64,000 nt of DNA from Escherichia coli (GTDB taxonomy: Bacteria > Pseudomonadota > Gammaproteobacteria > Enterobacterales > Enterobacteriaceae), in NCBI RefSeq assembly GCF_003018115.1, contig NZ_CP027457.1; one strand, given 5' to 3'. Below are positions 5,795 through 6,351 of the stretch, in pieces. The position numbers and the translations under genes were made by a program. The notes below the pieces were generated by a model. The model was not told the origin of the DNA, ran no database searches, and saw nothing but the letters and a program-made list of their open reading frames with translations. The first letter of the stretch is position 1, and every line of letters begins with the position of its first letter.

Positions 5795-6351
5795 TAAAAC
5801 CGCATCAACCGTTCTACCAGTTGTTCTTTACGGGCAACGATCCAGTCGTGTTGCTCCAGATAAAAACCGTTCCAGAGTGCATACCATCGCATCGGCGGGG
5901 ATTTTTTCCGTGAATTCGACCTGCCCGTGTTTATCGAGGTGGATCAGTAATGCGTATCCATCATTTTGGGTTGGGGGGGTTTGTGCTGCTGGTGGCTGTT
6001 TTTGGCTGAAATAACAGTCTTCGAGTTTTTCGAACACTTCCCACGCCTGAACGGTTTCCAGCATTTTTGCGTGGCGTGCTGCTCCGCGTTCTGTCCATAG
6101 GGTGAGGGGCGGGCTTTGGGAGATATGGGGTTTTGTGACTTACTTAAAGTAAGTCGCAAATTTTTTAATTCTTCACCCGATGCTTTAAAAAAGTGCTTTC
6201 CTTCGACAAAACGCTCTTTGTTTCTGGTGAAGTTAACCTAGATATTCAGAATTTCGGTGCCATAAAGCTGCACCAAAAGTTCGGTGGTAATAACAGGAAT
6301 CTGGTTATGGGTGAACGGGGAGATGGTTTCAACAGAGATTTGAGTTGTCAT
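5795..6351 (-). pseudogene. ORF6N/antirepressor-like prophage gene, disrupted by one in-frame TAG and two frameshifts
   Basis: ATG at 6351 with gaggg RBS gives MTTQISVETISPFTHNQIPVITTELLVQLYGTEILNI, then TAG (6238-6240), then NFTRNKERFVEGKHFFKASGEELKNL in the same frame; LTLWTERGAARHAKMLETVQAWEVFEKLEDCYF continues in a second frame after the G4T4 run (6127-6134); WIVARKEQLVERLMRF in a third frame after the A5 run (5863-5867). Confidence 0.55.

What the first reader, a model, noticed from the sequence alone, without database searches (positions are those of the whole stretch)
6137..6155. Perfect 19-bp palindrome inside the antirepressor remnant, next to a frameshift site
gacttactt-a-aagtaagtc is a perfect inverted repeat with 9-bp arms, immediately 3' of the G4T4 run where the reading frame switches. 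Perfect palindromes of this length are uncommon inside coding sequence. It could be a protein-binding site (operator-like) or a structure that promotes slippage.
Basis: seen in the sequence. Interest (0 to 1): 0.25.

Follow-up and report, generated by a model that had tools for sequence, protein, structure and literature searches.

The report
Ancient self-matching palindrome inside antirepressor gene
The 19-bp palindrome is real but is neither an operator nor the cause of the frameshift: it is this dead gene's copy of an inverted repeat that occupies the same codons of ORF6N antirepressor genes in phages of both Gram-negative and Gram-positive bacteria, with its two arms changing together.

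Summary
The palindrome GACTTACTT-A-AAGTAAGTC is at 6137-6155. It is the core of a 29-bp quasi-palindrome (6132-6160). It lies in a dead ORF6N antirepressor gene (minus strand, 5794-6351) at the end of a prophage inserted in ompW.

The frameshift is not at the G4T4 run. It is a 1-nt deletion between 6109 and 6108. Intact homologues carry the identical palindrome in frame.

There are no other copies or half-sites. The slippery sequence and the T-run beside the stem are not conserved across the family.

An inverted repeat with the same symmetry axis sits at the same codons in almost all ORF6N antirepressor genes examined, from enterobacterial to Lactococcus and Bacillus phages (54 distinct versions). 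The arm sequences turn over completely, yet the arms stay complementary and the encoded amino acids change with them. Recoding the peptides with synonymous codons destroys the symmetry. The symmetry is the same on both strands and usually reaches the central base.

Best reading (about 0.5): a coding inverted repeat kept perfect by replication template switching, in a permissive helix-end and loop segment. It is inert in this window. Main rival (about 0.3): a selected DNA or RNA structure of unknown role.

The parts
6137..6155 (.). Perfect 19-bp palindrome (9-bp arms, central A on the + strand). On the gene (minus) strand it reads cGA CTT ACT TTA AGT AAG TCa, encoding R-L-T-L-S-K-S.
6132..6160 (.). 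Extended 29-bp quasi-palindrome with 14-bp arms and one T.G (+ strand) or C.A (gene strand) mismatch at 6136/6156. It covers codons N-L-R-L-T-L-S-K-S-Q-N and equals one 30-nt hairpin unit of the family.
6161..6166 (+). T6 run directly after the stem on the + strand (A6 on the gene strand, codons AAA AAT). It makes this allele look like an intrinsic terminator antisense to the gene. It is not conserved in the family.
6127..6134 (.). G4T4 run, encoding Q-N-P on the gene strand (caA AAC CCC). It carries no lesion. T6132-6134 form the outer stem.
5794..6351 (-). ORF6N-domain antirepressor pseudogene, the last gene at the right end of a lambdoid prophage.
6238..6240 (-). Internal stop TAG (codon 38; CAG in intact alleles).
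6108..6109 (-). Actual frameshift site: 1-nt (T) deletion between these bases, at codon 82. It is shared with L002, L014, L021 and L024.
5865..5866 (-). 5-nt deletion between these bases (codons 163-164). Among the sequences compared it is seen only in the window's own sequence and in the 100%-identical genome record NZ_CP027462.1; L002, L003, L004, L005 and L011 lack it.
6404..6487 (-). C4 antisense RNA (RF01695, 61.6 bits against a gathering score of 45), upstream of the gene.
6513..6602 (-). isrK Hfq-binding RNA (RF01394, 60.4 bits against 50; 6513-6589) overlapping the c4-a1b1 target element (6550-6602; 38.6 bits, below its gathering score of 46.7).
6596..6625 (-). Promoter-like site TTGACA-18-CATATT upstream of isrK/C4.
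5762..5784 (-). Terminator-like hairpin just after the gene's stop codon.

Best explanation
The palindrome is this allele's version of an ancient inverted repeat built into the coding sequence of ORF6N-domain antirepressor genes. The proposed mechanism is inferred, not shown. When a substitution hits one arm, replication template switching between the arms (quasipalindrome correction) either reverts it or copies its complement into the other arm. The two arms therefore evolve in concert, and the repeat stays near-perfect while its sequence turns over completely. This is tolerated because the repeat encodes the last turn of a helix and the start of a surface loop, where almost any residues are accepted, including 1-3 extra 10-codon units. 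The amino acids simply follow the DNA: codon i and its mirror codon are reverse complements. In this window the gene is dead, with a nonsense codon, a 1-nt deletion and a 5-nt deletion, none of them at the palindrome. The element is an inert fossil here. It did not cause the frameshift and is not an operator.
For: Shown. (1) Intact homologues carry the same palindrome in frame. (2) On 31 distinct enterobacterial alleles, 88.2% (sense) and 90.6% (antisense) of cells pair, against 20-49% when the partners are slid. Five pairs have two-sided changes (41 cells) and 0 of 500 shuffles reach the observed score. For example, one column pair is GC:17/CG:14 and never unpaired. (3) Mirror codons are reverse complements: GTT/AAC, CTT/AAG, GTG/CAC, GTA/TAC, CTG/CAG; ACT/AGT, GTT/AAC, TCT/AGA, GCT/AGC; plus the doubly synonymous CGA..TCA to AGA..TCT. 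(4) Homologues from Yersinia, Acinetobacter, Salmonella, Bacillus, Paenibacillus and Lactococcus bIL285 orf6 have an unrelated palindrome at the same codons. It is the best hairpin of the whole gene in 15 of 18 genes. (5) In 50 independent Gram-positive-type genes the slot scores 7.19 against 4.16+-1.0 for control windows, and it matches or beats every control window in 68% of genes (about 9% expected). (6) Synonymous recoding of the same peptides drops the score from 9.57 to 4.72 (mean z 4.3). (7) DNA-level signature: no strand preference, no excess of sense-strand G.U (15 G.T against 27 A.C), symmetry to a single central base in 39 of 54 versions, centre size always odd, arm length 7-20 bp. 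(8) Near-identical alleles L008 and L029 differ by 5 substitutions clustered in 11 nt at mirrored positions, with a further 2 substitutions in the second hairpin unit of the same 84-nt stretch. (9) AF2 places the segment at the helix 59-69 to loop 70-81 junction (pLDDT 82-95), and units are inserted there 1-4 times. Literature: perfect inverted repeats are conserved in Proteobacteria and this is attributed to template-switch correction (PMC5941160); template switching can create and maintain hairpins (PMC8794818); quasipalindromes are template-switch hotspots in E. coli (PMC7202029).
Against: No template-switch event was observed directly, and no rate was measured at this site. Covariation of this kind is equally what selection on a structure would give. 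Retention in nearly every lineage across roughly 40-45% protein identity is a long time for a purely neutral feature. Some mismatches that a synonymous change could repair persist across many alleles (C.A at CGx/TCA in 25 of 31; A.G at CTA/GAG in 11 of 31), which argues against very efficient correction. No other palindrome in these genes is conserved in position, so this site is special in some way. The pseudogene test was uninformative because the window's copy is too young and the older fragment in L005 is ambiguous.
Confidence: 0.5

Rival explanations
1. A selected nucleic-acid structure tied to the ant gene itself. This could be an mRNA hairpin about 190 nt into the ORF that tunes translation, stability, or pausing and polarity. 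It could also be a DNA hairpin or cruciform with a cis role. Template switching would then only supply the compensatory changes.
For: Position-fixed conservation with covariation in 54 distinct versions from Gram-negative and Gram-positive phages. Synonymous codon choice is constrained. It is the strongest hairpin in most genes. Folding energies have z-scores of about -5 to -6 on either strand. No other palindrome in these genes is conserved.
Against: There is no strand-specific G.U signal, and symmetry usually runs to the central base, which an RNA loop does not need. Stability and arm length vary widely (-3 to -19 kcal/mol; 7-20 bp). About a third of Gram-positive-type genes have only a weak repeat. 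There is no Rfam family, no flanking conserved motif, and no known regulatory role in the IsrK/AnrP study (PMC4825925).
Confidence: 0.3
2. In this particular allele the extended stem plus T6 acts as an intrinsic terminator on the + strand, antisense to ant. It would stop read-through from the tail-fibre (late) operon into the C4/isrK region.
For: The consensus scan calls 6132-6160 (13 pairs) followed by TTTTTTAATT. The + strand RNA folds at -16.1 kcal/mol, z -5.1. The late genes lie upstream on the + strand.
Against: The stem is AT-rich (4 G-C pairs). At least 5 T in the 8 nt after the stem occurs in only 24% of lineages on the antisense strand and 0% on the sense strand. The same allele sits in other genomic contexts, such as the Q/nin region in L003, where this role makes no sense.
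Confidence: 0.08
3. A dyad-symmetric protein-binding site (operator), possibly bound by the ORF6N domain itself, whose half-sites diverge symmetrically as specificity changes.
For: Symmetric change of both half-sites is also what co-evolving dimer sites show. The signal is strand-neutral and DNA-level. From the Iyer, Koonin and Aravind domain analysis (my own knowledge, not tested here), ORF6N is a predicted nucleic-acid-binding domain.
Against: No second site or half-site appears in the window or in flanking regulatory DNA of 10 lineages. The site overlaps no promoter. Symmetry covers every position including the centre, and arm length varies 7-20 bp, unlike a fixed-size site. There is no structural or sequence homologue to support DNA contacts by the loop.
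Confidence: 0.07
4. A frameshift-promoting signal: the slippery A_AAA_AAT followed by the hairpin causes -1 ribosomal frameshifting, or polymerase slippage produced the window's frameshift.
For: In this allele an in-frame X_XXY_YYZ heptamer (A AAA AAT) directly precedes the stem.
Against: The window's frame change is a lone-T deletion 28 nt from the palindrome, and the interval 6110-6239 is identical to an intact gene. The -1 frame ends after 7 codons at TAA inside the palindrome. The heptamer is absent in many alleles, for example CTT AAA GAA TTG and CTC GCA AAT TTG. Intact alleles read straight through.
Confidence: 0.02

Closest known systems
Short inverted repeats (quasipalindromes) kept perfect by replication template switching (Ripley model; E. 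coli thyA/lacZ hotspots; Lavi et al. 2018, PMC5941160; Monttinen and Loytynoja 2022, PMC8794818)
   Same: The arms change in concert. Complementary substitutions occur in clusters. The symmetry is strand-neutral and reaches the centre. The feature persists across related genomes.
   Different: Here the repeat is inside a protein-coding sequence and drags amino acids along. It is fixed at one position of a protein domain across phages of different phyla. It also forms in-frame tandem arrays of 30-nt units. The published conservation analysis was restricted to non-coding DNA.
Template-switch-driven protein change in yeast genes (PMC8604942)
   Same: Homogenisation of inverted-repeat arms inside coding DNA produces multi-nucleotide, multi-residue changes.
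   Different: Those are scattered, lineage-specific events. This is a single site maintained across a whole gene family.
Conserved cis-regulatory RNA hairpins (Rfam-type elements)
   Same: Position-conserved stem with compensatory changes and strongly negative folding z-scores.
   Different: No Rfam match. No strand-specific G.U tolerance. Pairing continues into what would be the loop. Stem length is not conserved.
P1/P7 immI-type control of ant by C4 antisense RNA, and Gifsy-1 isrK-orf45-anrP (PMC4825925)
   Same: The window's gene has the same upstream cassette: promoter-like site, isrK/a1b1, C4, then ant.
   Different: That control acts on the leader and ribosome-binding region. Nothing in it involves a structure inside the antirepressor ORF. 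Gram-positive homologues have the palindrome without this cassette.
Rickettsia palindromic elements inserted in frame in protein genes (recalled from memory, not tested)
   Same: Palindromic DNA is tolerated in frame in surface segments of proteins.
   Different: Those are 100-150 bp mobile repeats scattered over many genes. This is a 15-40 bp repeat at one homologous site with no copies elsewhere.

Membership tests
Template-switch-maintained inverted repeat (quasipalindrome) | The two arms change together, in a complementary manner, across relatives | tested here: met
   5 pairs and 41 cells with two-sided changes; 0 of 500 shuffles reach the score..
Template-switch-maintained inverted repeat (quasipalindrome) | Symmetry is a DNA property: strand-neutral and extending to the centre | tested here: met
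   88.2% against 90.6% paired on the two strands. 39 of 54 versions have one unpaired base and the centre is always odd. G.T 15 against A.C 27.
Template-switch-maintained inverted repeat (quasipalindrome) | Clustered multi-nucleotide differences at mirrored positions between otherwise near-identical alleles | tested here: met
   L008 against L029: of 7 differences over 84 nt, 5 fall in 11 nt at mirrored positions of the first unit and 2 in the second hairpin unit.
Template-switch-maintained inverted repeat (quasipalindrome) | Elevated template-switch correction rate at the site | not testable with these tools
   Needs a reversion reporter in wild type and in xonA xseA strains.
Template-switch-maintained inverted repeat (quasipalindrome) | Persistence is independent of gene function (survives in old pseudogenes) | tested here: inconclusive
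   The window's copy is identical to intact alleles but young. The decayed fragment in L005 has an 8-bp-arm repeat with a 7-nt spacer (seen by reading the sequence printed; the scan there allowed spacers of at most 5 nt and did not report it), and its age is unknown.
Operator / dyad-symmetric repressor site | Further copies or half-sites in the regulatory region | tested here: not met
Operator / dyad-symmetric repressor site | Overlaps or adjoins a promoter | tested here: not met
   The site is about 190 nt inside the ORF, and no promoter-like site is nearby.
Operator / dyad-symmetric repressor site | Bound by a specific protein | not testable with these tools
   No sequence homologue in the PDB and no significant fold match.
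Programmed -1 ribosomal frameshift signal | A conserved slippery heptamer 5-9 nt upstream of the structure | tested here: not met
   A_AAA_AAT is present in this allele only with 0-5 nt spacing and is absent in many alleles.
Programmed -1 ribosomal frameshift signal | The -1 frame yields an extended product, or intact genes need the shift | tested here: not met
   The -1 frame stops after 7 codons. Intact alleles are single ORFs.
Intrinsic (Rho-independent) terminator | A stem followed directly by a U tract | tested here: inconclusive
   Met on the + strand in the window. In the family it is present in only 24% on the antisense strand and 0% on the sense strand.
Known structured RNA family (Rfam 15) | Match to a covariance model | tested here: not met
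   Only C4, isrK and c4-a1b1 match in 4500-8500, and none covers 6132-6160.
ORF6N-domain antirepressor gene (PF10543) under C4/IsrK-type control | ORF6N domain, with C4 and isrK RNAs upstream | tested here: met
   Intact homologues match PF10543 at E about 5e-20. C4 scores 61.6 against 45 and isrK 60.4 against 50. The window's own copy is a pseudogene.

The most novel reading that the evidence does not exclude
The inverted repeat is a selected cis-element intrinsic to ORF6N antirepressor genes, conserved from Firmicutes phages to enterobacterial phages. It would be a DNA hairpin or cruciform, or an mRNA hairpin, embedded in the coding sequence that throttles or gates antirepressor expression, or that the ORF6N domain itself recognises. 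The protein loop would be free to take whatever residues the structure dictates.
Probability: 0.3. Interest if true: 0.75.

Novelty: new variant of a known kind. Interest (0 to 1): 0.5.

Why it matters
For this window the practical result is negative: the palindrome is not an operator, did not cause the frameshift, and sits in a dead gene. The family-wide pattern is the interesting part. One site in a phage protein domain has kept a DNA palindrome across very distant hosts while its sequence and the encoded amino acids were completely replaced. If it is neutral, it is an unusually clean, deep-time natural example of template switching driving concerted evolution inside a coding sequence. It also shows that textbook compensatory covariation can arise without a functional RNA. 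If it is selected, it is an undescribed control element in genes that decide prophage induction, including in Shiga-toxin phages. The two readings can be separated with simple synonymous and compensatory mutants and a quasipalindrome reversion assay.

Tried and rejected
- Other copies: searched for the palindrome with up to 3 mismatches and for half-sites with up to 1 mismatch in the window. Only the site itself was found, and half-sites were at the chance rate.
- Known RNA families: an Rfam scan of 4500-8500 at E<=1 found nothing on the palindrome.
- Frameshift at the G4T4 run: rejected by alignment to intact alleles.
- Programmed frameshifting: the heptamer is not conserved and the -1 frame is closed.
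- Terminator as a family trait: rejected, because the T-run is present in only 24% on the antisense strand and 0% on the sense strand.
- Strand assignment by G.U asymmetry: no asymmetry was found.
- The peptide forcing the symmetry: rejected by synonymous recoding.
- Structure leads: no PDB sequence homologue. Foldseek against the PDB gave nothing at E<=0.001, and the best hint was a Dachshund winged-helix-like motif at E 1.4.
- Pseudogene-persistence test on the decayed ORF6N fragment in L005: ambiguous.
- Technical limits: my first anchor pattern caught only 18 Gram-positive-type genes. The looser pattern caught 50 distinct genes and still missed 11 loci. The L004/L005 and L009 groups were left out of the formal covariation alignment because of a one-codon register shift, although they have their own 7-8 bp hairpin at the site.
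- Literature: no paper describing a palindrome in ORF6N or antirepressor genes was found. The library is limited to open-access papers.

Full report
**The observation.** The sequence GACTTACTTAAAGTAAGTC is at 6137-6155 and is a perfect inverted repeat with 9-bp arms around a central A. First-order Markov shuffles of the window give about 1.2 palindromes of this class (arms of at least 9 bp, loop 0-3) per 64 kb. That is about 0.01 for a gene of this size. The window contains five distinct ones. The symmetry is longer than reported. TTTGTGACTTACTT-A-AAGTAAGTCGCAAA (6132-6160) has 14-bp arms with a single T.G at 6136/6156 and is followed by TTTTTT. No second copy exists in the window, and half-sites occur at the chance rate.

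**The gene.** The window is E. coli DNA with a lambdoid prophage inserted in ompW, next to yciE-yciF-yciG-trpA. A 100%-identical record annotates window 5794-6351 (minus strand) as 'ORF6N domain-containing protein; frameshifted; internal stop', followed by an ompW remnant. Intact homologues match Pfam ORF6N at E about 5e-20, with varying C-terminal domains. Upstream on the same strand are a promoter-like site (6625-6596), isrK with the C4 target element (6513-6602) and the C4 antisense RNA (6404-6487). Both isrK and C4 score above Rfam gathering thresholds. This is the P1 immI / Gifsy-1 isrK-anrP type of antirepressor control (established knowledge; PMC4825925). It acts on the leader, not inside the ORF.

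**The frameshift is elsewhere.** I aligned the window to intact alleles (L003, L011). The window has a CAG>TAG change at 6240, a 1-nt deletion between 6109 and 6108 (GCCCGC^CCCTCA) and a 5-nt deletion between 5866 and 5865. From 6110 to 6239 it is identical to the intact gene. The G4T4 run encodes Q-N-P and carries no lesion, and three of its T form the outer stem. A flank-anchored search that left the 19 bases free returned 16 viral contigs. All of them carry the identical 19-mer. Thirteen are in uninterrupted frames and three share the window's frameshift. So the palindrome neither requires nor caused a frame change.

**Arm-to-arm covariation.** In other alleles the same codons (R-x3-x4-L-x6-x7-S) still form an inverted repeat, but with different arms. 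Mirror codons are reverse complements of each other:
- x3/x7: GTT/AAC (V,N), CTT/AAG (L,K), GTG/CAC (V,H), GTA/TAC (V,Y), CTG/CAG (L,Q).
- x4/x6: ACT/AGT, GTT/AAC, TCT/AGA, GCT/AGC.
- The outer C.A mismatch (CGx...TCA) becomes C-G through TCG, or A-T through the doubly synonymous AGA...TCT.

On 31 distinct enterobacterial alleles the 14-pair stem has 88.2% of cells paired on the sense strand and 90.6% on the antisense strand. With the partners slid by 1-3 columns the figure is 20-49%. Five pairs have two-sided changes (41 cells), and 0 of 500 shuffles reach the observed covariation score.

**Tandem units.** The unit is 30 nt (10 codons) and occurs as an in-frame tandem array of 1-4 units. The window has 1 unit, many Ant alleles have 2, a Stx1a phage has 3, and phage 2851 antA has 4. 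TRF reports period 30 and 3.1 copies in phage 2851. Each unit is itself a quasi-palindrome.

**Depth of conservation.** Homologues at 41-63% protein identity have an unrelated palindrome at the equivalent codons. These come from phages of Yersinia (perfect 14-bp arms), Acinetobacter, Salmonella, Bacillus, Paenibacillus and Lactococcus (bIL285 orf6, the domain's namesake). It is the best Watson-Crick hairpin of the entire gene in 15 of 18 genes, although the slot is only about 12% of gene length. In an independent set of 50 distinct Gram-positive-type genes, the slot's best palindrome scores 7.19 against 4.16+-1.0 for same-size windows elsewhere in the same genes. The slot matches or beats every control window in 68% of genes, where about 9% is expected. 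Allowing a few mismatches gives 54 distinct palindromes with a mean of 11.5 Watson-Crick pairs (range 7-20). Recoding the same peptides with random synonymous codons lowers the score from 9.57 to 4.72 (mean z 4.3; 93% have z>2). The peptide therefore does not force the symmetry.

**What kind of constraint.**
- The signal is the same on both strands.
- Mismatches that would be G.U in the sense RNA are not enriched (15 G.T against 27 A.C).
- In 39 of 54 versions complementarity runs to a single central base. The unpaired centre is always odd (1, 3 or 5), so the axis is fixed on one nucleotide. An RNA loop would not need this.
- Arm length and stability vary widely.
- No half-sites occur in +-700 nt of flanking DNA in 10 lineages.
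- A T-run after the stem is present in 24% of lineages on the antisense strand and in none on the sense strand.
- AF2 (pLDDT 82-95 in this part) puts the left arm at the end of helix 59-69 and the right arm at the start of loop 70-81, which is where the extra units are inserted.

These features fit a DNA-level inverted repeat in a permissive protein segment better than an operator, a terminator, a frameshift signal or a strand-specific RNA element.

**Most likely mechanism (inferred).** Quasipalindromes are template-switch mutation hotspots in E. coli (PMC7202029). Perfect inverted repeats are conserved in Proteobacteria beyond expectation, and this has been attributed to preferential correction by template switching (PMC5941160). 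Template switching can create and maintain hairpins and produce apparent compensatory changes (PMC8794818). If correction is much faster than point mutation, a change in one arm is either reverted or mirrored. The repeat then persists indefinitely while drifting in sequence, provided the protein tolerates the residues. The 5-substitution mirrored cluster between L008 and L029 fits this; the only other differences in that 84-nt stretch are 2 substitutions in the second unit. I give this reading about 0.5.

**Main rival (about 0.3).** The repeat may be a selected structure with an unknown cis role. In its favour are the near-universal retention at one site and the persistence of some mismatches that a synonymous change could repair. 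Weighing against it are the DNA-type symmetry and the weak repeats in about a third of Gram-positive-type genes. The data here cannot separate the two readings, but the experiments listed under next steps can.

**For the window itself.** The gene is dead and the palindrome is an inherited, inert copy. The only conceivable residual activity is incidental termination of + strand read-through at 6161-6166.

Noticed in passing
window 6404-6625 (minus strand): A complete immI-like control cassette lies upstream of the dead antirepressor gene: a promoter-like TTGACA-18-CATATT site, isrK with the C4 a1/b1 target element, and C4 antisense RNA. Both RNAs score above Rfam gathering thresholds. The RNA genes may still be expressed although their target gene is dead.
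   Followed up: partly
window 6809-6934, with 6994-10691: A 3' remnant of ompW (annotated as missing its N-terminus) marks the prophage right end. yciE, yciF, yciG, trpA and trpB follow. So the prophage is integrated in ompW.
   Followed up: partly
window 4103-4121, 17103-17123, 35265-35284: Three other perfect palindromes with arms of at least 9 bp: TCCCGGAGG-A-CCTCCGGGA inside the collagen-like tail-fibre gene, TCCCTTCTT-ATG-AAGAAGGGA, and GCCACGGATATATCCGTGGC. The window has five such palindromes where about 1.2 are expected. I did not check whether any of these is conserved with covariation like the ant one.
   Followed up: no
window 3459-4646 (+ strand): The tail-fibre N-terminal-domain gene has a long collagen-like G-X-Y repeat region ([25 protein letters not shown]...).
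   Followed up: no
L114 593-686 (phage 2851 antA); L113; L008; L112: The 30-nt hairpin unit varies in copy number (1-4) between antirepressor alleles of Stx and related phages. This lengthens a surface loop of the ORF6N domain by 10 residues per unit.
   Followed up: yes
L028 148-1263 (P1-like plasmid, E. coli strain a15): A KilAC-type Ant encoded downstream of icd contains the same ORF6N segment. Its repeat has a one-sided change (GTG...AAC, a G.A mismatch), so it looks like an intermediate between the GTT/AAC and GTG/CAC versions.
   Followed up: partly
L005 1112-1314 (also in L011): A second, older frameshifted ORF6N fragment lies beside the intact gene at the ompW prophage end. Its slot holds a different inverted repeat (ACAACACG-AATGAGG-CGTGTTGT).
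   Followed up: partly
L007 1-359; L114 1196-1229: IS3-family transposase genes lie immediately next to antirepressor genes in two loci. The relation to the palindrome is unknown.
   Followed up: no
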